Below are positions 26,616-64,000 of a stretch of 64,000 bases of DNA, piece by piece. The stretch lies in NCBI GenBank assembly GCA_000004985.1, contig GG738864.1. One strand, written 5' to 3'. Every line of letters begins with the position of its first letter. Position 1 is the stretch's first letter. The translations under genes were made by a program, and so were the position numbers. The DNA comes from Naegleria gruberi. Lineage: Eukaryota. The notes below the pieces were generated by a model. The model saw only the letters and a list, made by a program, of their open reading frames with translations. It searched no databases and was not told the DNA's origin.

Positions 26616-27071
26616 TATTGTAAGTTTCCAGAAAGCGTTTACGCAAAAAATTAACTTTTTTGATCGACTTGGTGCGACCTGACTTGATTTTGGATGACGT
26701 TAAAAACAGACGACTTTTGATTGATCCCCAAATCAACTAACACCAACCTGCAGTTGAAAGAAGAATTAACTCAATTTATTTTCTTTTGATATATTTGCAT
26801 AATTTGGTGTCAATTCTTCTTACTTTAACCTTTATTTCTCTCCAAGTTCTTTAGAAGTCTATTTGATAATAGTTCCACTGCAGTGCAAGCAATTAAAACA
26901 AGAATTGGATCGACCTTGAATCGATTGTAGTTGATTGCCGGTAGTCTGTGAATCGACTTTGAATCGATTTTGTTGCCAGTAAATTGACTTTTTTTTTCGA
27001 CTTAAAATGACTTTAGACGACTTGACTTGAAGTTAACTTTTGGCGTAAACGCTTTCTGGAAACTTACAATA
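26616..27071. mobile_element. MITE-like non-autonomous DNA transposon (~452 bp) with 27-29-bp perfect terminal inverted repeats and candidate TA target-site duplication (Tc1/mariner-Stowaway-like)
   Basis: The left end is TAttgtaagtttccagaaagcgtttacgc (26616-26644). The right end gcgtaaacgctttctggaaacttacaaTA (27043-27071) is its exact reverse complement. The TIR continues imperfectly inward to ~50 bp (aaaaaattaactt / aagttaactttt). The interior has no ORF and is rich in gacttga / gaatcgat subrepeats. Confidence 0.55.
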
Positions 27072-28336: not shown

Positions 28337-28622
28337 ATTATTGTTGTTGTTGTCTTGATGATGCTCGCAGAAATGTAATTAATCATCAACAATAATGTGT
28401 CTAGTGGTTGTTTTTTTTGCTGATGAATTTTAATTTGTTTTGTGAATAAATGTAACGTTCGAATTTTTAATTCAAAACGGTCTTGTTTGGCGCCAAAGAT
28501 TTTATTTACCGTTTTGGATCTCTATTTAATTTAACTGCTGTCAGCCTTCTCTTTGAAACAAAAGCAATGTTGATTGTTATCCATCTGCCAGGAACAGTCA
28601 TCCACAGATTACGAATTGTCTT

Positions 28623-28716
28623 GAGTATCAACAATAATACCCTGATCTTATCTAATATTCAAAACAATATTTGACATTTAAGATATTTCAAGATTAGGGT
28701 ATTATTGTTGATACTC
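28623..28716. repeat. intergenic hairpin: 26-bp inverted repeat (1 mismatch) separated by ~40 nt
   Basis: The arm gagtatcaacaataataccctgatct (28623-28648) pairs with agattagggtattattgttgatactc (28691-28716). It lies in the ~1-kb divergent region between genes starting at 28336(-) and 29361(+). Confidence 0.5.
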
Positions 28717-29360
28717 AAACCAACTCTGACAAAGTATTGATCATCACCACTACTATTCATGCCATTGGAGGAATCATTCTGATATTGAGAAGACTATTGA
28801 GGCTAACATTTGTTTATTTTTCAACAAGGGTTAACATTTTGTTCAAAACAATTACAAAATCATTATTCAAAAAGTAATTATTTTATGGATGGCCCATGGA
28901 AAAAAGCTCTAAATCGACTCGGCATATCCTCACTTCATTATAATTCTACAATGCTCAATATCCTCTCCAAAGGATCAACAAGGATCGTCGAAATGTAGGC
29001 TCAAACTCTGAAAAATATTGCGCATTCTCACTCCGTAAAAAATATCTCTTTTGGTTGGTGATTTTTTCAAACTCCATTGCAATACTACTTCTTGGAGTAT
29101 TAATATCTTTCATCATCACATCTTGTTTATATAATTATAAATAATTATTTTGAGAAAGGATTTTTTTGGAAGATACTATCCCTCTCAATCCGATAATTAG
29201 ATCATCATCATTGGGTGAATTCACTTTTCCAATTTTTTTAAATTGTTGTAGGAGTTTAATATTTCAAACTGTACTTTTTTGCTAGTTGTAAACTCCATCA
29301 ACTCCGTTTAATAGAGAAAGAACATCCTTTTTGTTAGAAGAAGATAAATAACAGTTCAAC

Positions 29361-42374: not shown

Positions 42375-42790
42375 AAAACTTTACCACTGGTACAATCAAT
42401 TGACATATCTATTTAAATATTCTAATTGAATCATCTTGTTGATCTGTATATCAACAATTCTTAATGTCATAATCTGAAAGAAATATTTTCCCTCCTGTTC
42501 TATCAATTGCCATTCCATACAAAAATCTTTCAATTTTCCAAATACAATCAGCACTTGATCCTAATCTCATTAAATTCTTCACTCTATATTTGAAAGTATA
42601 CTTATTCTCTCCAAAATAAATAGCATCATTTTATTGATCATCAAAATTCTCTTCAATTAACAAACCAGGCACTCCTCCTTCGACAAGAAAGGCTCCTAAA
42701 TATTCATGAGTAATCAAATCAAAAAATTTCACTTCAGAATTTGAAACATCAGAGATGCACAAACAATTGTGTGAGAAATATTGGCATGGT
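42375..42790 (-). pseudogene. degraded partial copy (3' half plus 3' flank) of the soluble NHL-propeller gene at 61841..62800, lying immediately downstream of kinase gene A's stop codon
   Basis: The reverse complement of 42375-42790 aligns with 62020-62820 at about 90% identity in the retained blocks, for example tttctcacacaattgtttgtgcatctctgat...gatttgattactcatgaatatttaggag.... It carries a CAA>TAA stop in gatcaaTaaaatgatgc. Two internal deletions of ~275 and ~100 bp are each bounded by short direct repeats (ggcaatt, aattgttg). Similarity continues past the parental TAG into the 3' flank. Confidence 0.6.
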
Positions 42791-42795
42791 TCTTT

Positions 42796-45700
42796 TCAAT
42801 AGTCAAATAAATCATTCAAAGTTTCAAGTATTGACATGATTGGTGGTCGTTTCTCTTCCTCAGCTTTCCAACACTCCTGAATTAATCCACATAGACTGTA
42901 TACTTTGCTAGCTTCCAATGAATCAAAAGTTTGTGGATTATTTCTCTTACACCACTGAAAACATTCTTCCTTAGAATGGAAAGGGATGAGAGGTCTGAGA
43001 TTATCTTGACAAATCTTACTGGTGAGGAAGGGAGTACTTGGGAATTTTCTTTCCTTATCAAGATTTAATCGTTGTAAAGTTCTTGGTTCAGTGTAAGTGT
43101 AGGCATCTTGACATTCGAATAATAATTGCCACATGATAATGCCAAATGCATAAACATCACATGATTTGGCATCTTGAATAGTTCCATTAATCAATTGAGG
43201 GCTCATGAAATTATGTGTACCAATCAAGTGTGTCATTATTGAATTATTCTTATCTGACATTTTGCGTGACAATCCAAAATCACATAATTTACAAATTCCA
43301 TCTTTGGTTAATAAAACATTTCCTGGTTTGAGATCTCTGTGGACAATTGGAGTTGGTAAAGTGTGTAAATACTCAATACCTCTTGCAATACCTAAAAACA
43401 TTTGAATTTTACGATCAAATGTCATTATGACAGTTCCCTTTTCTAACTCATGAATTACATCAACTAGAGATTTGTCCAATCGTTCCATTACTATAAATCC
43501 CTTGTTAGGCATTATTGAAACTCCATAGAAAGATGTAATATTAGGATGTCTCAATTTGACCAGTATTTTGACCTCATTGATAAATTCCTGATCTTGAATG
43601 TCAGAATCCATTTCGAATACTTTTACAGCAACACTAATTCCTTTCCACATACTTTCTATAACCATTCCTTGTCCTCCTTTTCCAAGTCTCTTTCTATTTC
43701 TCAAGTCCAAATCACCAATAGGAATGATAAAATCATTTTGTGGACTAGATTCTGGATCTTGCAGCTCTATTGGTTTGTAATCATCACCAAATAACAATTG
43801 CTTTGATAGAGAATCTGCATCTCCAATAATTTTCTTCTGTTTTCCATATTTTCTGCACAGGAATACCAATAAAGACACCAATAATATCAAAAGTGCTAAA
43901 AAGACAATACTCAAAACGATTGGAACAATTGCTGAAATAACGGAATCATTCTTTTCACAATAATCTCCAGAAGATCCACTTAAACATTTGCAATCATCCA
44001 CGGAATTACACATTCCACGACCACTACATACGTTTGGATCATTCTGTGCTAAGCCATAACACATGGTAAATTGGCATTGGTTTCCTGTATATCTATTCTT
44101 ACTGCATGTACACTTATCAATATCGGTGCAATTTCCTCGACTTTTGGCACCTCCACACGCATCCGGGTTGACCTTTCCATAGCAGGTTGCAGTTTCACAA
44201 TTACTTCCCAAATATTGATCACTATTGCATTTGCAAGAGTTGGATGATTGGCATGTTCCTCTTCCATTACACACGTCCTTATTTGCATTGGTCAATCCAA
44301 AACACACAGGTATATCACATTCCTTTCCAGTAAATCCAGATTGACATTCACATTGATTATATCCTATGCATTTTCCTTTTCCACAAGCATCCCCCTCTGT
44401 TTTTCCATAACAAACAGGCAAACACAATGTGAAATTATCATTCAAAATGTAGCCATTAATTTCACAGTGTGGTGTCAATGTATAAATTGCTGTTCGAGTG
44501 CAATAAATGATTGAGCCAGTAAGTGGGTCGAATTCAATATCTAAGGCATTCTCATTCAGATTTGAAATAGTTTCCACTTCTCTTTCTGATTTGATTAAAC
44601 TAATTTTCCTTCCATATTTGTGAAGGACAATTATTTTGTTATCTAAATTGAATACAGGTGAAAATGGACCCTCCAATCCTGATTCAGCAATTGTTGTAAT
44701 TATTCCATTCTTATTAATTCTTCTAATTCTGTCATTTAACATGTCGCAAAATACTAGATCTCCGAAATCATTAATCAATAGTCCAGTAGGTTTGTTGAGA
44801 GAGGATTTCGTTGCTTGGATGTAGTTCGATCCTCTACCAACATCTCCGTCTCCTGCAAGAGTTGTCAGCATGCCATTTCTGTCAAGTTTTCTAATATTTG
44901 AAAATAAGTCATCTGTGAAATAAACAACATTGAAACTATCCACAACAACAGAATATGGATAAGCAATGCTCAATCTTTCAGTAATATTATCTCTTCCGTA
45001 TCCACCTAAAAATCATTTGATTAGAATCTTTGAGATTCTATGAAAATTTCAACATACCAGAAATGAATGTAATTTCTTTAGTTCTAATTGAATCTTCACC
45101 AGTCATGTTCAATCCTAAAACTCGGTGATTTCTCGAATCTAGAAAATAAAGCATGTCGCCATCCACAAATAAACCTTTAGGGCTGTTCAATTTAATCTTT
45201 GCTGGACTAGTGTCTCTGTTAAATCCAGAAACTCCAACTCCAATTGCTGTTGAAATAAAATGTGAATTCACATTAATTAGTCTAATACGATTATTGAAAG
45301 TATCTGAAACGAAAATTAATTCATTTCCATCGTGATCTGTATAATATTCAGCAAATGTTGGATAGAGAAAGCTGATAAAATTATTAGAAAGACTATGAAA
45401 GAAGCACATGTACTCACCTTGCACTCAGGGAGGAGCCACCATCACCTCCATAACCATCGCTTCTTCCTGCTATTGTTTGAGTATTGGAATTGGCATTGCC
45501 ATTTTGTAAAATTATCTTTCTAATTCTATGATTTGCTAATATAATTAGAATAGTTTGGAAAATTTGAAAACTTACCAGAATCTACAATATACAAATGGGT
45601 AATCTTCTCTGGTTTTTCAACACATAATAAACCATACGGTTGATTGAATGCTGATGCAAGAGGAGCCCCATCAATATATCCTTGATATCCAACACCTGCT

Positions 45701-47577
45701 AATAAGTATCCTCTAGTTTCTTTTAAAGGAAATTCCAAAATACGATGATTGAATGTATCTGAAACATATAGAGTATCTGAATTTGCAGAATATTTAATGT
45801 CAGTAGGAGCATTCATTTGGATTGCACGTCTTGGCTTACCACTATATGGAATAGCTGACCCATCATTGGGAATGGTGAATGTTGGAATTCCAGCAAATGT
45901 ATCAATTATTCCAGTAAGTAACGAAACGTTTCTGATCAATCCATTTCTTGAATCCACAATATACATGACATTTTTCACTATGCATAATCCTTTAGGAGTG
46001 GATAACTGAGCATTAATAGCTAATCCTCCATCACCACTAAATCCAGATTGTCCAGTACCGGCTACAACATAGATTTTCCCCTCTTTGGTAATTTTTCTCA
46101 CCATATTATTTCCTGATTCAGTGAAATAAATATTTCCATCATCTGCTTTGTAAATCGATAAAGGGGTGTCCAGAACTGCATTACTGGCATCCATTCCATC
46201 TTTCTGCTTATTTTTTTTCGAAGAATCAATTAGTACTGTTTTAACTTTCTTCTTGATAACAGCTAAGGATGTGACAGAGGTTTCTGGATCAATAGATGTC
46301 ACGTAAACGCTCTCATCTTCTCCTAAATCGAGCTCTGTATAAATTACACTTTGAGATGAGGAAATTTCAGTACTACTACCCTCCAAAGAGGATACTCTTC
46401 CTGTTGTGAGCGAAATATTTCGAATAATATTACCATCAGTCACGTACAAATTCCTCAATAGTGGAGATAAGGTAATTTTCTCCATTCCCGAAAATCCATA
46501 TTTTAACATGGGTATTCCGTCTAAACTCAATCCATCCTCTGAGAAGATTTTCATCAGATTTCCATTAATAATTGTTAAAATTGCATCGTGATAGGCAATG
46601 AATACATTACTTCCAATATACATATCAGTTACTTCTCCTAGTTCAACTTTGAGGGCAGGTCCATAACTGTACTCTGTTGAATCCTTTCCAGAACCAACAA
46701 TTGCCTTACTTGTTCCATTTCTATTAATTTCGAATATTCTCTGGTAGCAAAAGGCAAATAATTGATCTTGATAAATAGTGGAGGTTCTTAAAATTGTTTT
46801 TGAATTGATAAATTCTTCTTGGTTATTACCAGCTATGGTTACATTCATTGAAAATAGATATTTTGGTTGATTGCCAATTTCATCAAGAATAATGTAGAGA
46901 GAATCATCCTTCAACACGACGAATATTTCATTAGAATCCAAATTAATCGACATGGTAGCTATTGTCATATTAAAAGCAGCAACAGGTTCCGTCCTCAACT
47001 CATTCGTTGTAACATTAAAAGCCATAATCCTATTCGAATCGGCAAAATACAGCATTCCTCTATTAATGACTGCTCTGAGTGGTGGATTGGTCAATTGAGT
47101 TGGTTTCACAAGTGTAGTTGCCTTCCCTGACTTGGTATCAAATTTCCTAATGGCAGGTATTCCTTTATCAATGAAATACACTTGATCATAGGCAATTCCA
47201 TCATCATGAATACTTTTCGAAATGAAAATCGATGAAGGATTTGAAATTAAAGTACCATTCCAACCACCCTGTTTGCTATTAAATGGTTTTCCATACTCTC
47301 CAATCACAGTTTCCACATCACCACTCGACATGTTCACTCGCATGATGCTATTTTTCGAATGTGAAAAGTAGAAACAATTTGGATGAGAAACGGATGGAAA
47401 TACAGAGAGAATATTTCCGAGTTGAATATCTTGGGATTGAGCCAAGATGTTTTCTGCATAATTTACAGGAAGGGACAATTGGGATTGAACGTGATGATGA
47501 TGATAGAAACAAAGAAGAAGAAATGAAACTAAACAAAACGTGAATGATGTGAATAGTTGCATTTTTTTAAATATCAT
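42796..47577 (-). CDS. receptor kinase A: signal peptide - ~25-30 NHL beta-propeller repeats - 4-5 EGF-like Cys modules - TM - Ser/Thr (TKL-like) kinase; ~1547 aa, 4 exons (47577..45576, 45535..45418, 45371..45058, 45005..42796)
   Basis: Introns are 40, 46 and 52 nt with GTAAGT, GTGAGT and GTATGT donors. A 46-nt intron was chosen over a 25-nt alternative because it conserves the NHL spacing GDGGxxxxAxFxxPxF. The NHL consensus recurs, for example GFSGDGGLAINAQLSTPKGL...YIVDSRNGLIRNV. The EGF-like region is CNGRGTCQSSNSCKCNSDQYLGSNCETATCYG. The TM helix is IVPIVLSIVFLALLILLVSLLVFLC. Kinase motifs are LGKGGQGMV, VAVKV, HRDLKPGNVLL and DFGLS, with APE replaced by SPQ. Confidence 0.8.
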
Positions 47578-51159: not shown

Positions 51160-54100
51160 TTATTTGAAATAATTGAGGGAAAGAAGTTGAGATGCATTTG
51201 GTCTTTGTTTTGAATCTTTTTCTAACATTTGCAATACAATTTCAATTAAATCATTCGAATATTCATTATCATTGGATTGTTTCATTTGTTTTGTTAGAAT
51301 GTTGATTGCGTTTTGTGATTGAATTCCCATCAACAAGTTGCTGATTGATGTTTCCTTGTCTTTTGTCATGATTTGATAAATTGAAACACCCAAAGAGAAA
51401 ATATCAGTATTAAAGGAATAGGAACTGCCAAGGGCAATTTCTGGACTCATATCTGAATGGTTTAGTTTCGTCTAAATAAAAAAATAAACTTACATAAAGG
51501 AGTTCCAGCATAGGATTGACCTTTTGATTCTTGAAACTTTTTAGCCAATCCAAAATCTGCCAAAACAATTTCAATTTTTTCACTTTCCAACTTTTTTATA
51601 AATATATTTGTTGGCTTAATATCTCTATTTTTCCAAAATTGATTTTACAAATTCCTAATATATACTTACCTATGAATAATATGCATCTCCTCATGAACAA
51701 GTTTCAATGCACTCAACATTTGTTTCAATATTTGCTTCAATAATTTCTCACTCACTACTTCGTCGTGTTTCAATAAATTTGTCAAATCTCCACATTCATA
51801 ATAATCCATGTCAATAATCAATAAATTGTCGTTGGTGATGAAATAATCATTCACCTTGATGATATTTGGATGATTGATATGGCTCAATTGGGATGCCTCT
51901 TTCATGATGGTATTCAAATCAGTGAATGATTCAAATCTGATAAGTTTGATTGCTTTCAGTTTGTTTCCATGTTTAATATCTGAAACTTTGAAAACACTTC
52001 CAAATGCTCCTTGTCCAATTCTTACAATATTCGAATATCTTGAGAAGGGATTTTCTTCAGAACTACTGGACGAGCCATTTGATGAAGAAATAATCATTGA
52101 GCTGGTGGAAGGAAATTCATTATCCGAAAGTTCAATATTGTTAGTATTGACCTGAACAATTTCCAATTTCTTATTCTTTCTTTTTCTTGAATTGAAGCAC
52201 ATTACCATAATGACTACTATTACAATTATTGTAAACAAAATTAATAAAGATCCAACAATAGGAATAACAATTGCAACTATTAATACTGATGAGTTGGTCG
52301 ATAATTGTCTTGCAATCTTAGTTATTTCACAATACTTTCCTTCAAAATCATCTTTACATTGACACGTGTCAAAATCCGAACAAATTCCATTTCCATTGCA
52401 AACACTTGAATTAGTTGCCAAAGTTCCATTACAATTCAATAGCATATCACACGTATTATTCCAAGTATTGAAAACATAATTTTCCTCACATTGTGGAATA
52501 ATCTTTCGAATATAAGTTGTTGCATCAATGAAGAAAATTTCACCTGAACTTTCGTCAAATTCAACTTGTTTTGTGAAGGAAGTAAATATTGTATCGGAAC
52601 CCTTTCCATCTCCATTGAATGCAGGAGAGGATGACCTCTTTCCAGCCAAGTCAATCAATAATCCACTCTTTTTCTCGTACATTCGAATAAGATTAGGAGC
52701 GCCTTTACTAGTTACTGTTCCATCTAACAATATAATATCACCATTCTTCTTGACAAAGATAGCAGAGGGGTTATCAATCGAAGATTCTAGTGCTGGTAAT
52801 CTGTCTCCTGAATATCCTTGAGAGAAAGTTCCCACCAAAGTTCTCAAATAAAATTGATTATTCGAAATCTTTTCAATTCTTCTAATGGTTTCCATTGTAC
52901 TTAAATAAAGATTTCCATCAATATAAAAAAGTGAAGTAATTAATCCAGGATACGTTTGAAAATTAACAACTATTCCGTCAGTAGATATTGGATTTGAGGA
53001 ATTGAACGTAAATTCCAGATTTAGTAGTTGAGTTTCCAAGCTGTATCTGTAAATATGCAAGATGTCTGATATTACTAAATCACCATTTGATTCATCTATT
53101 GTAAACCCTGACATTGCATTTGGTGGACAAGGTGAAAGTGTTCCCTTGACATTTGGTACAAAAGCTCCACAAGCACTTCCAATCACTCTTTCATAATTCA
53201 TAGTTTCTGGATCAAGTCTGATAATTCTACATGTTTCCTTAATGTATATCTTGTTATCAAATTTGGAAAGTTTACCAAAAGTTTTTAAACCAAGTATTGA
53301 CATGGTGATTGTCAAATAAGGAAAATCAAAAACTGGAATAGAAGGCAATAAAAACCAGCTAAGTGAAATTGACTTGCCTGTTTTTTCGTCAAACTTTTTT
53401 AAAACTCGATAATTATCAATGAAATAGTTTATCTTTTTAGCCGAATCTCTCATCAACAAAACAGGACTCAATGTTTTAGCTAATGGATTGAGTCCAGCTA
53501 TGGTTTTGATTGTTCCATTTGAAATTTCACTGATATAATTGGAGCAGGAGATGTAAATTCTTGAATCTTCTCTGTTCACTTGAATTGCATAACTTTGTAT
53601 TTGATTGTAATCTAATTTCAGTTTACAAAAATTACTTACGTTGCTGAAGTTTCAATAGGAATGTCATCACCATTGAATCCAGATGTATAAATATTAGTAT
53701 TTGAAATGTTAACCGCATCAAGTCCAACAATTTTCTTTAATGAAAGTGAATCCCATGAATATTCATAAACTTGTGAATAAATATAGAAATAGAAAATTCT
53801 GCCAAATGTAGTAAATCCATTAAATGATATATCTGATATTTTTCTAATACTAGTTGTATAATTTCCATTCTTATAATCAATATATTCATAAATACTGTTA
53901 CCAGAATAATATAACAGAGAATTAGTTCCATTTATGGTTAAATCTGGAATAACACGTATCAAACCTAACCCAGGGATATCAATTTTCAGGATATACAATA
54001 GATTGGATTTGTGAAAAACTGAAAAGGTTTGAACGTAAGTTTGATAATAAATTGTTGAATTCTCATAGGAATCCCCTGTTGCAGTAATGGCACTCGAATA

Positions 54101-55548
54101 ATATTTTGGATCGTGAACAAGTGTCAAATTTTGAGTTTCCATATTGAATACGTATAATCCCAAATTTATACTACCAGTAATCAAAATTTCTCCATTTCCA
54201 AAATGATGTAAAAAGCCAATTGAGAAGAAAATTCGACTAGGTTTGTTGGAGGGGTATTTCAATTCTTTGGAAGAGCCAAATACTGTTGTCATTTTCCCAT
54301 TCGAAACCTTTCGAATTACTAAAGATTGTTCAACAAAATAGAGATCGTTCTTGTATCGAAATGGAAATGTAGTAGCTCCGTAAGTGTACATTTTGAGAGG
54401 TGAAATATTTTCACCATACGGATGATTGATTATTCCACCTGCAAGTGTAGAAACCATCTTGCTTTGTAAATCAATCTTTCGAATACAACTGTTCGATTTA
54501 TCCGCAACCAAAATTGAATTACGAGTCACAATCAAAGAAGAAGGTTCATAAAACTTGATACTAGAGGTATCATATAATTGATTATCACCTTCATATCCAC
54601 TTTCAGATACAGAACTTCCAATAAATAAAAGAGTAGAGGATGATTTTTCCTTTTTCATCTGAATGAAATGATTTGATTGTGAAGAGGTGTAAATTTCACC
54701 TTCATTCGAAACATAAATTCCATATCTGAAAGTAAATATTAAATTTCATCATTATTACTATTCGAAACTTACAAATTAGATTGAGATAATCCTCCATCCA
54801 CAATTCTATAAAATCCATTTTCATCAATTGACTTGACTCTTTCCTCATCTGTGAAATATACAATATCATTCTTTCCATTATTAGAATAAACATATATATT
54901 CTTTGGTGATTTTAAAAGTAATGACTTGGCATCAACTCCATCATAATCTCCATTTAGATAACCACCTCCTCCTAATATGGAAAGTGTTTGAGTGGCAATT
55001 TCATATTTCCAAATTAAGTTATTATTAGTATCTGCAATGTAGGCATTTCCATTCTTTGAAACACTGACACCTTTTGGTTTGTTAAAGGTATGCGAAATGG
55101 AAGAAACCAATTTGGTCGAATACGAAACTATTCGAATCATATCATTCAAAGTATCGGCAATAAACAAATCACCATTCAATGGATTCACTGCCACAGATGT
55201 TGGTGTATTCAGTAGAGTACCAACAGCACTCTGTCCATCTCCATTAAACCCACTCGTTGTAAATCCAGCATAAACTTCCAAAGTTGACCAATTTTGATCA
55301 TAAATTCTATAAATTAAATGTCTTTCAATATCAGAAATATAAATCTCACCATTCAATCCTTCACATAATCCACTCGGTGATAACATGTAAGCAAATTTCG
55401 CATCCACCACATCAAAATTAGTTGTACTTCCTTCAATTGTTTTGGTTGAGTAATATTTCACATTCTTCGATCTTTCCACAGCAGCACATGTGCTGGCCAA
55501 CAAGTTGCTGAGCAGGAGTAGTAGTAGTATTGAAGTGGTGACCTCCAT
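51160..55548 (-). CDS. receptor kinase B (paralog of A/C): signal peptide - NHL propeller repeats - EGF-like modules - TM - Ser/Thr kinase; ~1402 aa, 5 exons (55548..54773, 54725..53640, 53592..51670, 51624..51494, 51452..51160)
   Basis: The signal peptide MEVTTSILLLLLLSNLLASTCAA starts at an internal Met of track ORF 54769..55824. Introns are 47, 47, 45 and 41 nt, all with GTAAGT donors. A kinase exon missed by the ORF track encodes HRDIKPTNIFIKKLESEKIEIVLADFGLAKKFQESKGQSYAGTPLY|MSPEIALG. Other kinase motifs are IGQGAFGSV and AIKLI. The TM helix is LIVAIVIPIVGSLLILFTIIVIVVIMV. EGF-like modules include CNGNGICSDFDTCQCKDDFEGKYC. Confidence 0.8.
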
Positions 55549-56212
55549 TGAAAGACACCTGCCAACTGTCGCATGTCTTGAGTAATGGTACAACATGTTT
55601 GCTTTATTTTTGTTTATTTTGAACAATACATCTTGTGCGTCTATTTCCGAATAATCAATGTGGGTTAAAGGATAATTGTTCCAACTCCATAACAGATGTT
55701 GTAAAGAAATTGATGTATGGTGATTGGATGAATATTCCTCTTTTTTGGCAAGTTTCGTCATCATCTCATGCGGGTAAATTAGTGTTACTGTACCGTTGTA
55801 GTAGCTCGAACATTCTATGTTCAAAGGATTAGTCTAAATTCGAATAAAAATTAAAGATCTAATTAAACTCCACATGATTCATTTCTTGTGTAATATGCAA
55901 ATTATCAGCAATAGATTCAGGAAATTGTAAACTCCATCTTCATGATCCAATTCATAATATTCATTGTTTTCCAAATTTACAATAACTGAACAAACAAACC
56001 TTGCTTCAAAAAATCAACCAAACTCTCGTAATACCTTGCTTGGTTTTCGTTCCAACAATTCATCTCTTGCTGTAAATTAAGATGAATTACTGTGTGATCA
56101 AGTTTTTTCCTTAGATTCTAGTTGTAAAAGAGAATTCTCCATTTCTAAAAGAGATCCAAAGGAGGATTGACTAAAGTGCATACATATAAGTGTTAAAGTG
56201 ATTGTTTATTAA

Positions 56213-59200
56213 TTAATTTTTGAGTGAATTTTTCAATAGAGAAAGAATTTCATTAAAGTGGTGAATAGAAGGTCTTTGAGAAGGATTAGTTTCCCATCCC
56301 TTCTTAATTAAATCAAGTAATTGGTAGATTACTGTACTTTCTTGGAGTGAATAGGCCTTTTTCATTTCACACCAAGATTGACAATCTTCCAAAGTTTCGA
56401 ATGGAATGAGTGGACGATGTCCAGATGCAATCTTTGGAAGCAGTTGGCTTAATAAATTTTGATATTGAACTGGTTGTTCAAGATTCAACTTGTTTAATAT
56501 CAATGGATTCGTATAATAATAAGGATCCATAATTTCAAATAGAATTTGCCACATGATTATTGACAAACTATAAATGTCAACAGCAGTTAACAATTGCCTT
56601 TCAATTTCACCAAATGATTCAGGACTATTAATCAAAATCATTAGAAAGATAATAAATAGTAATACTCTACCTCATATAATAAAAAGTTCCAATTTGATTT
56701 GTAATTTGCGTGTTGTTTTGCTTATTCAAGAGTCTGGACAAACCAAAATCACACAACTTGCTCACTCCATGAACATCTTGCAAAATATTGGCAGGTTTCA
56801 AATCTCTGTGCACGATCGTTGGTTTCAGATTGTGTAAATATTCGATTCCTTTGCAGATATCAAGCATAATATCCATCTTTTGACTCAATGACAATTTCAT
56901 TCTATTAGATTGGAGTTCAGCAATAATATTTTCAAGACTTCTCTCCATTTTCTCCATTACAATATATCTCTTGGTTGGAGTAGAAGAAACTCCAAAGAAG
57001 GAAATAATATTTGGATGTCTCAATCTGGAAAGAACTGTTGCTTCAGACCTAAAATCATTTTCATCAATATTCATATTATTCAAATCGAAAACCTTAATAG
57101 CTACTTCAGTTCCAATCCATTGAGATTGATAAACTGATCCATAGCCACCAGAACCAAGTTTCTTCATTTTACCCAAATCCAACTTGTTAATAGAAATGAA
57201 GAATGAATCTGCTTCATCCTTCTTCTTTCCATCATTGTCAATTTCCAGTTCAAGCATGTTATCAGTAACAAATTGATCAGTTTTAATGATCTTTCTCTGA
57301 ACATAATACTTTCTGAATAGACCAATAATAATGAAAAGTGAACCACCAATGCAAAAGACAAGAACTGCAACACCTATTAAAGCACCAATAAGAGCCCACA
57401 GTTCATCAGAATGTTGACATTGTTCACCTGAATAACCAAATTGACAGGTGCATTGATTTGGAAGTGAACAACTGCCTCTTCCATTACAAACGTCTGCCTC
57501 TTTTTCATTCCTTCCAAAACATGTCATTAATTCACATTCTAAACCAGTATATCCAGTATTACAAGAACATTGATTCTTGTCAAGGCAACTTCCTCTTACT
57601 GAACCACCACAAGCCCCGTCAAGAATCTTTCTGAAACAAATTGGCGTTTGACACATTGAGGAAGTATATCCTTCTTTACAAATGCAAGTATTTGGAGCTG
57701 TGCAGTTACCTCTTCCATTTGTGCAAACACTGGAACTATTAGAAGCTTCTCCATAACAAACTGGTATTTCACATTCGAAACCTGTATATCGAGACGAGTC
57801 ATAACATTGACACAAATCTGGTGAAAGACATTCTCCATTATTATTGCAAACATTTCCACTCAACAGTTTGATCTTTCCATAACAAATTGGAAGGCAAGTA
57901 TCATTCTTTGAATAGACATGACCATTCTCACAGAAAGCTTCCAATTTTCTAACATTATTCAATGAAGAATCGATAAAGAATAATACATTTCCTTCATTGT
58001 TAATTGTCATGGAGGTGGGTGAAATACTGAAAGGTTTTGATTTGGTTTGAGATGGAGCAGATCCATCCCCCGCAATTACATCAAATGGATGACTAGCAAT
58101 GGTTGAAATCTTTCTAATAAAATTGTTTTTGCTATCTGAAATAATTGTTTGTCCCTTATAAGAAACAACTGAGGAAGGTGAATTTAAGGAACTTGTTTTT
58201 GGATCAGAGGTTTGAGAGAAGCCAGTGAACCCATTACCTGCTACAGTTTCCAATAATCCTTTCTTGTTAATTTTTCTCACCTTACTAATTCCAGATTCGA
58301 CAAAGATTAATTCACCCTCTTCATTGACATACAATCCTTTAGGTGCTGCAATATCTGATGAAATGGCCAATCTTCCATCCTCGGAGATTCCAAACAATCC
58401 AGTTCCTGCAATAGTTGAAATTACTCCATTTGTGGAAATCTTTCTAATTCTATTCTGAGCTGTTTCACTAACGTACATTTCACCACTCGAGGAGAAGGCA
58501 ACATACGAAGCCTCAACTTGTGAATAAAGAGCCAAGTTATTGTCGCCAATTCCTCCAGCAAATTTCTTTACCCACTTTCCTTCAATTTGACTTTCCAATA
58601 TTCTATTGTTACCTTTTCAAATTTCTTAATAAAATAATTCTAAATACTTTTAACTTACCTGAATCAGCAATAAATAAAATAGATTTGGAATGGTCAAAGA
58701 AGGTACATTGTGGATTATTCAATTTGACATTAGAACCTGTAATGTTTCCTTCGAAATAATTATAACCTGCAAAACCATTACCAACAACTGAATAAGTGGA
58801 CGAAAGGACAGCAAATCTAATTCTATGAGATTGGGAATCAGTAATGTGGATATCAGTTAAAGCAGATCCAACTGAGTTTACACTCGAAACACAAGTTGGT
58901 GTATTGTAAATTGCATTTGGTAAATTAAAATCATCTGTGTAACCCTTAGCTCCACTACCACTATGCGTAGTTACAGTTACTGGATCATTAAAAAGTGGTT
59001 GTAGATCAACATATCTAATACGATTATTTCCAGAGTCTGCAAAATAGATAATCCAATCTGAATTGAGAGAGAATCCCATAGGTGTGTCCAAATGAGTGGA
59101 GAGAGCTGGCCCATCACCATTGAATCCCTTTACACCACTTCCAGCAATGGTTTGAATAATACCAGTACTAAGAGTAATTTGTCTTAATCTATTATTGAAA

Positions 59201-61022
59201 GTATCAGAAAAAAACAATTCATGATAATAATTGACTTGGAGATAGGTTGGAGAATTCAATTGAGCAGTAAGGGCATTAATATTGTCTCCATTGTAACCTT
59301 GTATTCCATTTCCTGCAATGGTTTGGATGATTCCAGATGTTATGTTGACAGCTCTAATTCTATGATTATTGGTATCGGCAACATAGAGCACATTATTATC
59401 CAAATAGATTCCAGTTGGAGAATTAAGCTTGGCCAATGTTGCTAAACCACCATCACCATCAAATCCAGAAGTTCCACATCCAGCAACACCAATTACCACA
59501 CCACTAGTTCTGTGAACCTTAATAATTCTATGATTTCCAGAATCAGAAATGTATACATAACTAGTTGTTGCAAAAATTCCCTTTGGAGAGTTTAGAACTA
59601 GTTGATCTTTGTGTTGCTGTAAAAGCCTGGATGCTGTTATTGGACCTGCAAACATTGTTGAAATGCTTCCATTATATTTGTGAATGAAACCCTTTGATGA
59701 GACAACATATAGATCACTGTTATTGGTTGAGACTGAAACTGGATTGAGAGCAAAAGGTTGATAGGTATCAATGAAATTCAACTCCTTCTCTGGGGCTATC
59801 ATTTCAAGTTTGTTGTTTGCTGAGATTTTTCGTACAGCTCCATAGTCAGAAACGTAAAGGTTTCCACTTTGCTGATCCAGAACTATTCCAGTTGGAGAAT
59901 GAAGTGTTGTCTCACTAGAATTGTATCCATCAATAAATGGACCAATAACAGCTCCATCATAATTAATAAACAAGATCAATGATATTGTTTCATCAATCAT
60001 TGAAATTTTTCTAATTGTTTTCAGTCCAAAATCGCTAACGTACATGAAACCATTATGAATACCAAAATACTGATTTATGGCAATGAATTCAGCATCACTT
60101 GCCTTTCCACCATCTCCAAAAGTGGTTGCTTCCAAACTAGCCTGTTTACCATTTCCAACAAATCTTGAAATATTTCCATTTCTCAAATCCATTTTCCTTA
60201 TTGTCGAAGAAAGCTCTTTAGTATCCACGTATAGCAAGTAATTATCCACTCTCAACAGTCCTGGATGAGTAAAATCTAAATTTTCTACCAACAGCTCTTC
60301 ACCATTATCAATGGTCCATCTACAAAGTGATTTCACATCAATATCTTTAAATTTGAAATAATAAACGACACCATCATCATCCACATAGACATCCAAAACA
60401 TTTGATGATGTTGAAATGTAGGTGCTGACAATACCATTCTCTACTTTTCTAATTGCATCATTATACCCATCTGCAATGTACATAATTCCATCTTTATCAA
60501 TGAACATTGAATAGATCCTAGTGTGTATGAAATGTGTTAGATAAAGAACAAATAATTGAACACATACCCATCAAAGAGAGCTTCTCTTGCATCTCCTCCA
60601 TCACCACTATATCCTGATTCATCTTTGATTCCGACAATTACTGTATAATTAGCCTCAACTTTTTCATTGATAATACTTATGGAAGTGGAATCGGAACAAT
60701 AAACAACACCACTTTTAACATTCACGTATAATGAACAAATGAATGGCTTCTTGAGGAGTGTCATCTTTTTTGATACTGCATCTATTTTAGCAATGAAACT
60801 ATCATCCACGGTATCACATTCAAAATAAATGTGTCCTTCATTAGTAACATGGACAGCTCCTAAACCACTGAATACATTCTGTTTGTGAGGTTTGGTTACA
60901 TCACTCAGTGAGTATTTTGGTGTTGTTTGACCAAAGGATTCCCTTAGTAGGAATTGTGTGAAAAAGCAACAAGCTAACAACACTAAGGCAATGACGGATT
61001 GGAAAGGAAGGTGTTGCTTCAT
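56213..61022 (-). CDS. receptor kinase C (paralog of A/B): signal peptide - NHL propeller repeats - EGF-like modules - TM - Ser/Thr kinase; ~1555 aa, 4 exons (61022..60568, 60517..58659, 58612..56671, 56624..56213)
   Basis: The signal peptide is MKQHLPFQSVIALVLLACCFF. Introns are 50, 46 and 46 nt with GTATGT, GTAAGT and GTAGAG donors. The exon junctions ...EALFDG|IYSMFIDKDG and ...IADSG|GNNRILES fall inside NHL repeats, and ...GTFYYM|SPESFG inside the kinase. NHL consensus examples are YVADTNNHRIRAV, FFSDTFNNRLRQI and ADSGNNRIRYV. EGF-like modules include CNNNGECLSPDLCQCYDSSRYTGFECEIPVCYG. The TM helix is LIGALIGVAVLVFCIGGSLFIIIGLF. Kinase motifs are LGSGGYGSVY, VAIKV, HRDLKPANIL, DFGLS and YMSPE. 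Confidence 0.8.
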
Positions 61023-61774
61023 ATTTTTTCTTCTTGTTCAACAAGTCTAATGAATGTTTGGTCAGTGCTAATAATTGGTTTTGCCTTTTCCAAGATTGGA
61101 GAATATATATGGAAATACTGTATTTTCCTTTACTGATCCTCTATTTTATATACAGGTAAAGATTATTATTAAGCAAAGAAATGTTCATAATATTGAATCA
61201 TTTTCAATACAACCCTTCAACTCTGTTTTGTCTGATTCTTTATTCACTATTACTACTCACTATATCACAATGAAATATAATGACGATGCATAACATTTCT
61301 AAGGAAAGTTTAAAAAATTTAGGAAACAAAGTGGCTTCACTTCTTCTCATCATTGTTGCTACCCTCATCAAACCTCAAAAGAGAGGAGGAATATTTCATG
61401 ATGAATAGAGGTACTCTAAGAGAATTAAGCTCTGAAACATTTATCAACTCACAAATGTCATCTCTTTAGTAAAACTTAAATTCGGAGCACAACAATTAAT
61501 CATAATAAATTAATACTCGGAGAAGATACACCAACAACAGATGAACTTAATTAACACTAGTGGAAGTTGGATGTAAACATTAGTATTACGCTAATTTCCT
61601 ATTCAACAATGGGACAATAATTGTGTGTTCCTTTAAGCATTCCTTCTTTTGAAATGTACACTGTCGAAAGTTGATCAAGTATTATCCTCCTACTTGTTGT
61701 AAAGACACAGTTCCTTAAATGAATTTAAGAGAATTTCCTCCTGTGACTCCAAATGGAGTTGACTTAAGTGGCAA

Positions 61775-61830
61775 ATGAAGCAACCTTTCACACAACTTGC
61801 TCACTCCATCGTAAATCAAAGTTTTTCTTC
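61775..61830 (-). pseudogene. short antisense footprint of a kinase catalytic-loop/DFG region (remnant of a further paralog)
   Basis: A 22-nt exact match tcacacaacttgctcactccat occurs with kinase C at ~56745-56766 on the plus strand. The minus-strand translation ...LIYDGVSKLCERLLH matches kinase C's DVHGVSKLCDFGLSRLL. It overlaps the first 18 codons of track ORF 61775..62800. Confidence 0.4.
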
Positions 61831-61840
61831 AACTTGGAAC

Positions 61841-62800
61841 ATGTCAAAAATTACGAAAAAAAATGCAAGACGATTGTCTCTCATTAATCACAATCCTTCC
61901 CTACAGCTGAACGATGCCTTGTTCGAAAAATTTAAAATTCATATGAGAAGTTATCGGAATTGTGTGCCATTTTCAATGAAGTTTGAAGAGATGAATAATA
62001 TCAAGTCGATCGAACATAAATTGCACTGTCCCTCCCAAGCCAAGATTTCTCACTCACACAATTGTTTGTGCATCTCTGATAATTTAGATTCTGAACTGAA
62101 ATTTTTTGATTTGATTACTCATGAATATTTAGGAGGCTTTCTTGTTGAAGGAGTGACTGGTTTGTTAATTGAAGAGAATTTTGATGATCAACAAAATGAT
62201 GCTATTTATTTTGGAAAGAATAAGTATACTTTCAAATATAGAGTGAAGGATTTAATGAGATTAGGATCAAGTGCTGATTGTATTTGGAAAATTGAAAGAA
62301 ATCATATGTATGGAATGGCAATTAGAACAATTGGAAATCAGAAACAATTATTCAGATATAGTGCTTCCCAAGGAGTTATGGATATTATAGATACTGTGAA
62401 TGGAAAGGTCATTAAAGAGTTGAAACTTGAAAAACTCGACAGAGTAATGGATATTATTTTCATCAATCCAAAAAGAATGCTTGTTGCTGAACTTTTTCAT
62501 AATGCATGTTTTATTTATGATGAAATGAACGAAAATGAATGGAAATTGATACAAACAATTGAAAAAGCAGAGAATATTTATTTTAGTCAACCATTAGGAT
62601 TGGCAATTGACAGAACAGGAGGGAAAATATTTCTTTCAGATTATGACATTAAGAGAATTGTTGTATTTAATGAGAGTTTAGATTTGATTGATTGTCATTA
62701 TCCAGAATCTCTGAATCCATTTCGTCTCGATTTTGATGAAACAACAGGATTACTCTATATTACTGATCAACAAGATGATTCCATTAGAATATTTAAATAG
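61841..62800 (+). CDS. soluble NHL-repeat beta-propeller protein (~320 aa) with a Cys/His-rich N-terminal segment (possibly B-box-like); no signal peptide or TM
   Basis: About 5-6 NHL-like blades are present, for example LGLAIDRTGGKIFLSDYDIKRIVVFNES and TGLLYITDQQDDSIRIFK. The start is moved from 61775 to the in-frame ATG at 61841 because the first codons overlap the kinase footprint. The parent of the degraded copy is at 42375-42790. Confidence 0.6.
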   Translation: MSKITKKNARRLSLINHNPSLQLNDALFEKFKIHMRSYRNCVPFSMKFEEMNNIKSIEHKLHCPSQAKISHSHNCLCISDNLDSELKFFDLITHEYLGGFLVEGVTGLLIEENFDDQQNDAIYFGKNKYTFKYRVKDLMRLGSSADCIWKIERNHMYGMAIRTIGNQKQLFRYSASQGVMDIIDTVNGKVIKELKLEKLDRVMDIIFINPKRMLVAELFHNACFIYDEMNENEWKLIQTIEKAENIYFSQPLGLAIDRTGGKIFLSDYDIKRIVVFNESLDLIDCHYPESLNPFRLDFDETTGLLYITDQQDDSIRIFK

Positions 62801-62875
62801 ATATGTCAATTTATTGTACCACTGGTAAAGTATCCACAGTTCCTTAAATGAAATTAAGAGAAGATTGAAATTTTA

Positions 62876-63964
62876 TTACAAGTTTCTTATTCCTAATGGA
62901 TCTGGATCTGGATTGACTAAACTTCCACATGAAGAAACACTTCCATAATTCTTGCATTGAGAAATGGTCATTGTTCTTTCGGTTGTTTCAGTCTTTCCTT
63001 CCATTCCAACAAATCTCATGTTATCCACCAAGAATTCGACATAATTAGTTTGATCTACCAAGTAGATGGTAATTCTTTGGATTAATTGAACAGGATCGAA
63101 ACTTAAAGACGAAACTGGAATTCTCACACGAGTTGCTCTGTTTCCATCGATTTTGTACAAGTGTTGGAAGTTGCTTGTGGTTGCAACGTATCTGCCAGCT
63201 TCTACCAATTTCGAATTATTGTAATAACTAAATACGAAACCAATACTTTGAATACTGTAAATTGGATTCGCAGTCTTGATGAATAATTCAAAGTATTTGT
63301 AAATGCTAGTGTCAACAAACAACTTTGGACCAATCTTGTTGAATGAAATATCGCCCTTTCTTAAACCAAAATGCAATGAAGTATTTCCACAAATTGCAGG
63401 ACTATAGGATACATTGAAGAATGAGTTTCTGACATCGGTTGGACTGTATGCAGTCAATGACCATTCTCCACTCAAAGCACTAGCTTCATTGTAAATGGAA
63501 ATAACGTGAGATGAATTTTTCACGTTAGGACTGTCACATGGTTTGACAGACGAAACCAAAGGAGGTAAATTACAACTTGTGGAAGTTCCATTACTTAAAT
63601 ATAATTGAGCCCTCAAATGACCATTTGGATTTTCACTAGTTGACAATTTTACAAACATTTTTCCCTGAAGCAAGTAATTCCACTCCTCGTAGGATAATTT
63701 ATATCCGAATCTACTTTGAGAATAGGGAACAGTCTTTGAAGTTGGAGTGGCAATGTAATCTTCCTTACCAGGTTGACCAAATCCAACATCCAAACTTGTT
63801 ACAATAGAACTCAAACTGTGTGGAACTGTAAAATCAAGTGAAGCTGCTTCTGTATCCAAGAAGGCAAACACTAATCCACCACCAACTGTTGATCCAGAGG
63901 CCAATGGTTGTATATTTGATTGCTGACAGGTTTCCAATCTACCAACAAATCGATCTTCTCTCAT
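62876..63964 (-). CDS. CHRD (chordin-like) domain protein, >=362 aa; 5' end may lie beyond the window
   Basis: KMFVKLSTSENPNGHLRAQL matches the CHRD hallmark LYVNVHTxxNPxGEIRGQL. The upstream part (GGGLVFAFLD...VGFGQPGKEDYIATP) fits the CHRD N-terminal half. The frame stays open to the Met at 63964, and sequence continues to 64000. Confidence 0.45.
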   Translation of the reverse strand: MREDRFVGRLETCQQSNIQPLASGSTVGGGLVFAFLDTEAASLDFTVPHSLSSIVTSLDVGFGQPGKEDYIATPTSKTVPYSQSRFGYKLSYEEWNYLLQGKMFVKLSTSENPNGHLRAQLYLSNGTSTSCNLPPLVSSVKPCDSPNVKNSSHVISIYNEASALSGEWSLTAYSPTDVRNSFFNVSYSPAICGNTSLHFGLRKGDISFNKIGPKLFVDTSIYKYFELFIKTANPIYSIQSIGFVFSYYNNSKLVEAGRYVATTSNFQHLYKIDGNRATRVRIPVSSLSFDPVQLIQRITIYLVDQTNYVEFLVDNMRFVGMEGKTETTERTMTISQCKNYGSVSSCGSLVNPDPDPLGIRNL

Positions 63965-64000
63965 GAGTGCCTTGTAGGTAGCTCCAGGATTCTTTGGATT

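What the first reader, a model, noticed from the sequence alone, without database searches (positions are those of the whole stretch)
61775..63964. Soluble NHL-propeller gene, kinase-domain footprint and CHRD-domain gene flank the receptor array
Divergent from kinase C lies a small cytosolic-type NHL propeller protein with a Cys/His-rich N-terminus, a mini TRIM-NHL-like layout without RING. Its annotated start overlaps an antisense relic of a kinase DFG region. Next comes a CHRD-domain protein, a domain family of unknown ligand specificity. The same NHL fold thus occurs here in both an extracellular receptor context and an intracellular context. Shuffling of the NHL gene relative to the kinases may be how the receptor family arose.
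Basis: partly seen in the sequence, partly recalled or inferred. Interest (0 to 1): 0.5.

Follow-up and report, generated by a model that had tools for sequence, protein, structure and literature searches.

The report
Small Naegleria NHL propeller gene neighbourhood
This stretch of the Naegleria gruberi genome holds an ordinary small soluble six-bladed NHL propeller gene of a Naegleria-only family, two short rearrangement scars around it, and a probable CHRD-domain gene cut by the window end; the propeller is not a close relative of the neighbouring receptor kinases' outer domains.

Summary
The features are mostly real. The evolutionary story built on them is not supported.

- **Kinase footprint.** It is an exact 22-nt copy of the codons just before DFG in the neighbouring kinase, with no similarity on either side. 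I read it as a repair or rearrangement scar.
- **CHRD gene.** The call is probable but below Pfam's threshold (22.3 against 24.1 bits, E 2.5e-4). No homologues were found, and the ORF is cut by the window end.
- **Relationship to the receptors.** Both directions of testing show no special affinity between the soluble propeller and the receptor ectodomains, which are teneurin-type. Five other family loci have no kinase neighbours.

Two features are new. A degraded pseudogene copy lies at 42378-42789, directly after another kinase's stop codon. A 28-bp direct repeat flanks the intact gene. Overall this is a new member of a known kind and of low interest.

The parts
61775..62800 (+). Intronless ORF of 341 codons plus stop: a soluble NHL beta-propeller protein, 100% identical to an annotated N. 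gruberi 'predicted protein' (P0001).
   Evidence: The family is defined.
61775..61876 (+). First 34 codons: not conserved among paralogues and predicted disordered. The real start may be M23 (61841), which would match the length of paralogue P0002's N-terminus.
   Evidence: Alignments. pLDDT is below 50 for residues 1-34.
61988..62794 (+). Six-bladed propeller, residues 72-340. The N-terminal strand 72-76 closes blade 6. A conserved helix (residues 48-58) and the FSMKF motif precede it.
62582..62668 (+). The single Pfam NHL repeat match, residues 270-298 (blade 5).
   Evidence: 19.3 bits against a cut-off of 20. The same repeat passes in P0002 (36.3 bits) and P0003 (27.1 bits).
61788..61809 (.). 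The kinase footprint: an exact 22-nt copy of 56749-56770 in the same orientation. It is therefore antisense to the kinase reading frame and lies inside the non-conserved 5' end of the NHL ORF (codons 5-12).
   Evidence: 0 of 100 shuffles gave two matches..
56749..56770 (-). Source of the 22-mer: codons (H)GVSKLC(D), immediately before and including the first two bases of the DFG aspartate of the receptor kinase encoded by ORFs 60537-61022, 58609-60507, 56667-58598 and 56213-56641.
61706..61733 (+). Copy A of a 28-bp direct repeat, CACAGTTCCTTAAATGAATTTAAGAGAA, ending 41 bp before the ATG. It contains the palindrome CTTAAAT-GA-ATTTAAG.
62835..62862 (+). Copy B of the repeat (27 of 28 identical), starting 34 bp after the stop codon of the NHL gene and ending 13 bp before the stop codon of the convergent CHRD ORF. 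Its first half is also retained 3' of the pseudogene copy.
62876..64000 (-). 3' part (374 codons plus stop) of a gene that runs off the window end. A probable CHRD domain is followed by about 240 residues with no family match. This part has 6 Cys, 5 N-glycosylation sequons and no hydrophobic segment.
   Evidence: Not present in the protein collection.
63602..63907 (-). Sub-threshold Pfam CHRD match: residues 32-133 of the 374-aa translation, model positions 12-117 of 117.
   Evidence: 22.3 bits against a cut-off of 24.1, E 2.5e-4.
61023..61774 (.). 752-bp divergent intergenic region between the receptor-kinase ATG and the NHL ATG. No RNA family or tRNA was found.
42378..42789 (-). Degraded pseudogene copy of the soluble NHL gene. 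It is 90-94% identical in nucleotides to 62035-62329, 62597-62663 and 62761-62831. It has two in-frame stops and two internal deletions (about residues 183-274 and 294-327), and the first ~87 codons are missing. It begins 7 nt after the stop codon of kinase ORF 42796-44973.

Best explanation
**The gene.** ORF 61775-62800 encodes a soluble, probably cytosolic, NHL-only protein. It has a disordered tail, one conserved helix and a closed six-bladed NHL beta-propeller. It is one of many paralogues of a family found so far only in Naegleria (N. gruberi, N. fowleri, N. lovaniensis).

**Likely function (inferred).** The propeller most likely acts as a ligand-binding platform for protein or RNA on one face. 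This is how its closest solved relatives, the NHL domains of TRIM2/3, TRIM71/LIN-41, Brat, Mei-P26 and Thin, work. The family's expansion would then reflect diversified binding specificity.

**Relation to the receptor kinases.** Its position next to the receptor kinases comes from local duplication and rearrangement, not from shared ancestry with the receptor ectodomains. The same region holds a broken second copy fused to the 3' end of another kinase gene.

**The short repeats (inferred).**
- The 22-nt kinase fragment in the non-conserved 5' end is best read as filler DNA copied from 5 kb away during break repair.
- The 28-bp direct repeat flanking the gene is best read as a duplication or insertion junction.

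**The CHRD gene.** The convergent neighbour is a separate, probably secreted, CHRD-domain gene truncated by the window. I see no sign of a functional link to the NHL gene.

**Shown:** identity, family, fold, repeats, pseudogene, and lack of affinity to the receptors. **Inferred:** ligand-binding role, repair-scar origin, secretion of the CHRD protein.
For: **Identity and family**
- 100% identity to an N. gruberi protein.
- 584 hits at E<=0.001. Those matching over nearly the full length are ~270-470 aa, and all named ones are Naegleria.
- Conserved N-terminal helix and FSMKF motif.

**Fold**
- AF2 pLDDT 86.9, pTM 0.81, six four-stranded blades.
- The family HMM scores 177 bits on Thin, 146 on TRIM71, 125 on TRIM2/3 and 100 on Brat.
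- No signal peptide or membrane segment.

**No affinity to the receptors**
-, and teneurin ranks.
- No conserved linkage to kinases in five other loci.

**Local rearrangement**
- Pseudogene at 42378-42789 abutting a kinase stop codon.
- The 22-mer is exact with random-level flanks.
- The only exact repeats of 18 nt or more near this gene are the pseudogene segments, the 22-mer and the flanking repeat.
- The flanking repeat and the 22-mer are absent from seven loci (L001-L007) carrying other family genes.

**CHRD**
- Near-full-length Pfam match at E 2.5e-4.
Against: - The window copy itself misses Pfam's NHL cut-off by 0.7 bits.
- No ligand, expression or localisation data exist, and no paper mentions this family.
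- Two of the two copies in this window sit next to receptor kinases, which could hint at a functional tie.
- The filler-DNA reading of the 22-mer is an inference. There is no microhomology at its edges, and the window-wide chance expectation for an exact 22-mer is small but not negligible (about 0.002 by my base-composition estimate).
- The CHRD call is below the curated threshold and could not be confirmed by homologues or by structure.
Confidence: 0.78

Rival explanations
1. One reading: the soluble NHL gene and the receptor ectodomains are specifically related, and shuffling of this NHL gene next to kinases gave rise to the receptor family.
For: - The same fold class occurs in both.
- The intact gene is divergent from one receptor kinase, and a broken copy is fused to the 3' end of another.
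- A 22-nt kinase fragment lies in the NHL 5' end.
Against: - The soluble-family HMM scores 10-44.5 bits on the receptor ORFs, against 94-177 bits on TRIM-NHL domains.
- There is no kinase-bearing protein in the top 150 hits.
- The receptors score higher on prokaryote-type NHL proteins than on the soluble family; the first family member ranks 34th-55th.
- The pseudogene lies after the kinase's stop codon, in a position that cannot contribute an ectodomain.
Confidence: 0.04
2. Functional partnership: the soluble propeller is an intracellular partner or regulator of the NHL receptor kinases. It would be co-expressed from the shared 752-bp divergent promoter region.
For: - Head-to-head arrangement with the kinase.
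- Both copies in the window are adjacent to receptor kinases.
Against: - Five other family loci (N. fowleri x2, N. lovaniensis x2, one N. gruberi-like contig) have unrelated neighbours and no kinase.
- The second copy is dead.
- There are no expression data.
Confidence: 0.07
3. The 22-nt segment is functional. The 5' end of the NHL transcript carries a small-RNA-sized stretch perfectly complementary to the kinase mRNA and acts as a natural antisense or siRNA source.
For: - The complementarity is exact, 22 nt long, and matches only this kinase in the window.
- Naegleria has candidate Dicer and Argonaute homologues (PMC13315211).
Against: - There is no hairpin: the RNA fold z-score is 0.07.
- No Rfam match.
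- The segment is absent from the other family loci examined, and the N-termini of paralogues P0002 and P0003 lack the TQLAHS peptide it encodes.
- A single 22-mer is what templated repair would also leave.
Confidence: 0.03
4. The soluble propeller is an enzyme of the PAL, lactonase or strictosidine-synthase type rather than a binding scaffold.
For: - UniRef names one family member 'SMP-30/Gluconolactonase/LRE-like'.
Against: - The sequence profile is far closer to TRIM-NHL (94-177 bits) than to PAL (45.9 bits).
- Pfam SGL and Arylesterase models do not hit this protein at E<=1.
- The only invariant residues after the start methionine are hydrophobic residues or glycines (F66, W171, G210, G325). 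There is no conserved His, Asp or Glu constellation.
Confidence: 0.12
5. The CHRD call is a false positive, and ORF 62876-64000 encodes an orphan, fast-evolving secreted protein of another fold.
For: - The score is below Pfam's gathering cut-off.
- No homologue was found at E<=10 or at E<=0.001.
- No PDB or NCBIfam match.
- The AF2 model has pLDDT 36.5.
Against: - E 2.5e-4 against the whole Pfam library, with near-complete model coverage (positions 12-117 of 117).
- From my memory of the Pfam consensus, not a tool result: the C-terminal 'GKMFVKLSTSENPNGHLRAQL' resembles the CHRD 'G.lYvnvHT..nP.GeiRGQ' motif.
Confidence: 0.25

Closest known systems
NHL domains of animal TRIM-NHL proteins (TRIM2/3, TRIM71/LIN-41, Brat, Mei-P26, Thin/TRIM32, NHL-2)
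   Same: - Six-bladed NHL propeller closed by an N-terminal strand.
- Both are intracellular.
   Different: - It has no RING, B-box, coiled coil or filamin domain.
- About 10-15% identity in structural alignments.
- It has a family-specific N-terminal helix with the FSMKF motif, and a helix inserted in blade 2 (residues 157-166).
- No evidence of RNA binding or ubiquitin-ligase association.
Teneurin-type NHL plus EGF ectodomains (the neighbouring Naegleria receptor kinases; Pfam TEN_NHL, EGF_TEN)
   Same: Same superfold. Both are encoded within a few kb of each other.
   Different: - Only weak, generic repeat-level similarity (10-44.5 bits; at most 14.6 bits in the reverse direction).
- Extracellular, with a signal peptide, EGF repeats, a membrane segment and a kinase domain.
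NHL-only and NHL-plus proteins such as human NHLRC2 and the bacterial PknD sensor domain
   Different: Different partner domains (a Trx-like domain in NHLRC2, a kinase in PknD). The Naegleria family is a separate, lineage-restricted expansion.
CHRD domain (Pfam PF07452; chordin/Sog and many microbial secreted proteins)
   Same: Near-full-length match to the model at E 2.5e-4. The context looks secreted, with Cys residues and N-glycosylation sequons.
   Different: - Below the curated cut-off.
- There are no von Willebrand type C domains in the part seen.
- The C-terminal ~240 residues match nothing.
- Chordin's CHRD domains bind sulfated glycosaminoglycans (PMC13382577). Nothing is known for this protein.
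Templated (filler) insertions at double-strand-break repair junctions, and duplicated pseudogene fragments
   Same: - A short exact copy of nearby sequence with sharply bounded, unrelated flanks.
- A truncated, internally deleted gene copy with in-frame stops elsewhere in the same region.
   Different: - No microhomology at the edges of the 22-mer.
- The donor is 5 kb away.
- The event itself cannot be reconstructed from one genome.

Membership tests
NHL repeat / six-bladed NHL beta-propeller | Pfam PF01436 match at or above the gathering score | tested here: inconclusive
   The window protein scores 19.3 bits against a cut-off of 20. Paralogues at 84% and 50% identity pass with 36.3 and 27.1 bits on the same repeat.
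NHL repeat / six-bladed NHL beta-propeller | Profile-level homology to solved NHL domains | tested here: met
   The family HMM (A2) against PDB gives Thin E 6e-51, TRIM71 1.5e-41, TRIM2 3e-35 and Brat 1.8e-27.
NHL repeat / six-bladed NHL beta-propeller | Six four-stranded blades forming a closed propeller | tested here: met
TRIM-NHL proteins | N-terminal RING finger | tested here: not met
   No RING hit in Pfam at E<=1. The N-terminal 34 residues are disordered and not conserved.
TRIM-NHL proteins | B-box zinc finger with conserved Cys/His ligands | tested here: not met
   No B-box or zinc-finger hit in residues 1-92 at E<=10. The Cys/His residues at 81-99 are blade-1 strands and are not conserved.
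TRIM-NHL proteins | Coiled-coil region between B-box and NHL | tested here: not met
   Only one 11-residue helix (48-58) precedes the propeller.
CHRD domain (PF07452) | Pfam match at or above the gathering score | tested here: not met
   22.3-22.4 bits against a cut-off of 24.1. E is 2.5e-4 and model positions 12-117 of 117 are covered. The match is statistically suggestive but sub-threshold.
CHRD domain (PF07452) | Confirmation by a homologue profile or by fold | tested here: inconclusive
   No homologues were found. No PDB or NCBIfam hit. The single-sequence AF2 model has pLDDT 36.5 and is unusable. The gene is truncated by the window end.
Decayed protein-kinase pseudogene (the 'footprint') | Residual similarity to a kinase domain beyond the short core | tested here: not met
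   The exact 22-mer has flanks at random-level identity. No other part of 61023-61900 matches any kinase.
Duplicated pseudogene (42378-42789) | High nucleotide identity to a parent gene plus disabling lesions | tested here: met
   90-94% identity in three segments, two in-frame stops, two internal deletions, and a missing 5' third.
Retroposed or transposon-borne gene (flanking direct repeats as target-site duplication) | Poly(A) tract or terminal inverted repeats inside the direct repeats | tested here: not met
   There is no poly(A) before copy B and no inverted termini in the sequence. The first half of the repeat also travels with the pseudogene copy. The motif is absent from other family loci.

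The most novel reading that the evidence does not exclude
The 22-nt stretch at 61788-61809 is not a scar but a working element. The soluble NHL transcript would carry a small-RNA-sized sequence perfectly complementary to the catalytic-core codons of the divergently transcribed receptor kinase. Expression of the propeller gene would then feed an Argonaute/Dicer pathway, or direct mRNA-mRNA pairing, that tunes the neighbouring kinase.
Probability: 0.03. Interest if true: 0.6.

Novelty: new member of a known kind. Interest (0 to 1): 0.2.

Why it matters
It matters little beyond annotation.

- The analysis gives a fold and a family to about 25 or more clusters of "uncharacterized" Naegleria proteins. 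It shows that a protist outside the animals has expanded a TRIM-NHL-like propeller without the TRIM part.
- It removes an attractive but unsupported story about the origin of the NHL receptor kinases.
- The pseudogene, the 22-mer and the flanking repeat document recent small-scale rearrangement in this receptor-kinase region. That is useful context for anyone studying how the array evolves.
- The CHRD ORF appears to be missing from the public protein set and may deserve annotation.

Tried and rejected
**Genomic context and homologue searches that failed**
- Exact look-ups of P0001, P0002 and P0003 to obtain N. gruberi context found nothing on record. I therefore could not extend the sequence past base 64000 or inspect the P0002 and P0003 loci.
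- Homologue searches for the CHRD ORF found nothing, either full length at E<=0.001 or the CHRD part at E<=10.
- PDB and NCBIfam searches with the CHRD ORF were empty.
- The single-sequence AF2 model of the CHRD ORF was unusable, with pLDDT 36.5, so I did not attempt a fold search on it.

**Public collection scans**
- The scan for the 22-mer found nothing.
- The afdb50 fold library was unavailable.

**Ideas tested and rejected**
- B-box or zinc-finger reading of the N-terminus.
- Decayed kinase pseudogene under the NHL start.
- A decayed tandem NHL copy upstream of repeat copy A: local alignment score 29, against a shuffle maximum of 30.
- The flanking motif as a general 3' signal of the family.
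- A hairpin or miRNA-like precursor around the 22-mer: z-score 0.07.
- Any RNA gene in 60500-64000.
- Conserved synteny with kinases.
Full report
**Source and layout.** The window is Naegleria gruberi. ORF 61775-62800 (+) translates to a protein 100% identical to an NCBI "predicted protein [Naegleria gruberi]" on a 441,990-bp contig. The window's G+C content is 31-37%.

On the minus strand, four consecutive ORFs form one receptor-kinase gene: 60537-61022, 58609-60507, 56667-58598 and 56213-56641. Together they carry a signal-peptide-like start, teneurin-type NHL repeats, EGF repeats, a hydrophobic segment and a protein kinase domain.

Downstream, a minus-strand ORF (62876-63964 from its first ATG) converges on the NHL gene, with 75 bp between the two stop codons. 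Its reading frame stays open to base 64000, so the gene is cut by the window.

**The soluble NHL protein: sequence evidence.**
- Pfam finds one NHL repeat (residues 270-298) at 19.3 bits, just under the cut-off of 20.
- The same repeat passes in two N. gruberi paralogues: P0002 (84% identity, 36.3 bits) and P0003 (50% identity, 27.1 bits).
- An exhaustive HMMER search of 1.84 billion representative proteins gave 584 hits at E<=0.001.
- The hits that match over nearly the full length are ~270-470 residues long. Every one that carries a name is from N. gruberi, N. fowleri or N. lovaniensis and is listed as uncharacterised.
- The remaining hits are long, multi-repeat NHL proteins with alanine-, glycine-, arginine- and proline-rich, prokaryote-like composition. 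They match only the last two blades.
- An alignment of 26 family members (A2) shows a variable N-terminal tail. It is followed by a conserved strand, a helix (LF.KLK.KMR) and an FSM.F motif, then the propeller. The only invariant residues after the start methionine are F66, W171, G210 and G325.

**The soluble NHL protein: structure.** AlphaFold2 run with this alignment gives a confident model with mean pLDDT 86.9 and pTM 0.81.
- Residues 1-34 are disordered.
- A helix spans residues 48-58.
- Residues 72-340 form six four-stranded blades, with strand 72-76 completing the last blade.

The family HMM scores 177 bits on Thin, 146 on TRIM71, 125 on TRIM2/3 and 100 on Brat. The protein has no hydrophobic segment (maximum 19-residue hydropathy 1.10). 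"Small soluble NHL propeller" is therefore confirmed.

**No B-box.** The Cys/His-rich N-terminus is not a zinc-binding module.
- Residues 1-92 give no zinc-finger or B-box hit even at E<=10.
- The Cys/His cluster at residues 81-99 forms the first two strands of blade 1 in the model.
- These residues are not conserved in the family. H95 and C97 are common but not invariant.

The protein is NHL-only. It resembles TRIM-NHL proteins in the propeller and in nothing else.

**The kinase footprint.**
- BLASTN of 61023-61900 against the window finds an exact 22-nt match between 61788-61809 and 56749-56770, same orientation, E 2.6e-5.
- On the minus strand these bases encode (H)GVSKLC(D) of the neighbouring kinase, ending at the first two bases of the DFG aspartate.
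- The flanks show only random-level identity.
- No other site in the window matches within three mismatches, and none of 100 shuffles gave two matches.
- In the whole 64-kb window there are only 12 non-trivial exact repeats of 18 nt or more. Eight belong to the pseudogene described below, two are unrelated inverted repeats, and the other two are this 22-mer and the core of the flanking repeat.

The paralogous kinases themselves share no exact 18-mer. The 22-mer is therefore a recent copy, not a relic of an old kinase domain. It sits in codons 5-12, inside the 34 N-terminal codons that are not conserved in paralogues and are predicted to be disordered. If the true start is M23 (61841), it lies in the 5' UTR.

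I read it as filler DNA copied during break repair. That is an inference. The surrounding RNA does not fold better than shuffles (z-score 0.07), and no Rfam family matches.

**Other rearrangement marks.**
- **Pseudogene.** TBLASTN and BLASTN with the NHL gene reveal a second, broken copy at 42378-42789 on the minus strand. It is 90-94% identical in three segments, has two in-frame stops and two internal deletions, and lacks the first ~87 codons. It begins 7 nt after the stop codon of kinase ORF 42796-44973.
- **Flanking repeat.** A 28-bp direct repeat (27 of 28 identical) flanks the intact gene at 61706-61733 and 62835-62862.
- The pseudogene's 3' flank stays homologous into the first half of copy B. 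At least part of the motif therefore belongs to the gene's own 3' flank.
- The sequence upstream of copy A shows no significant similarity to the 3' part of the gene: score 29 against a shuffle maximum of 30.
- The motif is not found near family genes in seven other loci.

I cannot say which mechanism made the repeat. A duplication or insertion junction is the simplest reading.

- The soluble-family HMM scores 44.5, 44.2, 17.2, 12.6, 10.9 and 10.0 bits on the receptor ORFs in the window, through generic matches to the last two blades. This is far below its scores on animal TRIM-NHL domains.
- None of the 150 best representative hits contains a kinase domain.
- In the reverse direction, three receptor ectodomain ORFs have best single-domain scores of 57.5, 49.4 and 25.7 bits on prokaryote-type NHL proteins. 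They score only 14.6, 14.6 and 6.3 bits on the soluble family, whose first member ranks 51st, 34th and 55th.
- The receptors match the teneurin NHL and teneurin EGF models of Pfam. The soluble protein does not.

Gene neighbourhoods of five other family members contain no kinase or NHL receptor. These loci are two from N. fowleri, two from N. lovaniensis and one N. gruberi-like metagenome contig. The proximity in this window is therefore local. It is best explained by the same duplications and rearrangements that left the pseudogene.

**The CHRD gene.**
- The 374-codon open frame is far too long to be chance in DNA of this composition. At roughly 7% stop codons per position, the probability is about 5e-13 (my estimate from base composition).
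- Pfam gives a single CHRD match at 22.3 bits (cut-off 24.1), E 2.5e-4, covering model positions 12-117 of 117.
- Nothing else could be brought to bear. No homologue was found in 5.8 billion clusters, not even the protein itself, so the ORF seems to be unannotated.
- There is no PDB or NCBIfam match, and the single-sequence AlphaFold model is useless at pLDDT 36.5.
- The C-terminal ~240 residues match no family.
- The fragment has six cysteines, five N-glycosylation sequons and no membrane segment, which fits a secreted protein.

I rate the CHRD call as probable, about 0.75. [quoted passage not shown]

**Function and verdict.** No paper in the library mentions this family. By analogy with its closest solved relatives, the propeller most likely serves as a protein- or RNA-binding platform. 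An enzymatic role is less likely, because the sequence profile is much closer to TRIM-NHL than to PAL (46 bits) and no polar residue is invariant.

What is there is a new member of a known kind, surrounded by small rearrangement scars.

The only unusual reading left open is that the 22-nt antisense match to the kinase mRNA is functional. Naegleria does have candidate Dicer and Argonaute genes (PMC13315211), but nothing here supports that reading beyond the match itself.

Noticed in passing
window 42378-42789 (-): A degraded, internally deleted pseudogene copy of the soluble NHL gene (90-94% nucleotide identity, in-frame stops) starts 7 nt after the stop codon of receptor-kinase ORF 42796-44973. 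It probably lies in that kinase's 3' UTR. The larger deletion joins 'GMAI' of blade 3 to 'AIDRTGG' of blade 5, which suggests recombination between blade repeats.
   Followed up: yes
window 61706-61733 and 62835-62862 (+): A 28-bp direct repeat (27 of 28 identical) containing the palindrome CTTAAAT-GA-ATTTAAG flanks the intact NHL gene. It occurs nowhere else in the window or in seven other Naegleria loci. Its origin is unexplained.
   Followed up: partly
window 62876-64000 (-): The 374-codon CHRD-like ORF has no match at all in the 5.8-billion-cluster protein collection, although its neighbour is there. It appears to be missing from the public N. gruberi gene set.
   Followed up: partly
window 26616-26644 / 27043-27071 and 28621-28643 / 28696-28718: Two exact inverted-repeat pairs (29 bp about 400 bp apart, and 23 bp about 50 bp apart) are the only other long exact repeats in the window. 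They could be hairpins or the ends of a small mobile element.
   Followed up: no
window 42796-47577, 51666-55824 and 56213-61022 (-): The receptor-kinase genes match Pfam's teneurin-specific NHL and EGF models (TEN_NHL up to 74.7 bits, EGF_TEN, EGF_Teneurin). Their ectodomains therefore resemble a teneurin-like NHL-plus-EGF cassette joined to a kinase.
   Followed up: partly
window 6974-14569 (+): A single very long ORF of 2,531 codons. It was not examined.
   Followed up: no
P0064 / P0158 (N. fowleri, 880 aa) against P0160 / P0161 (342 aa) in the same 90% cluster: One N. fowleri family member is annotated as an 880-residue protein that UniRef names 'RecA family profile 1 domain-containing'. 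Shorter 342-residue versions exist, so this is probably a merged gene model.
   Followed up: no
L001 1-177 (N. fowleri VFQX01000022.1): A reverse-transcriptase/RNase H gene (a retroelement) lies about 10 kb from a family member in N. fowleri. No link to the family was seen.
   Followed up: no
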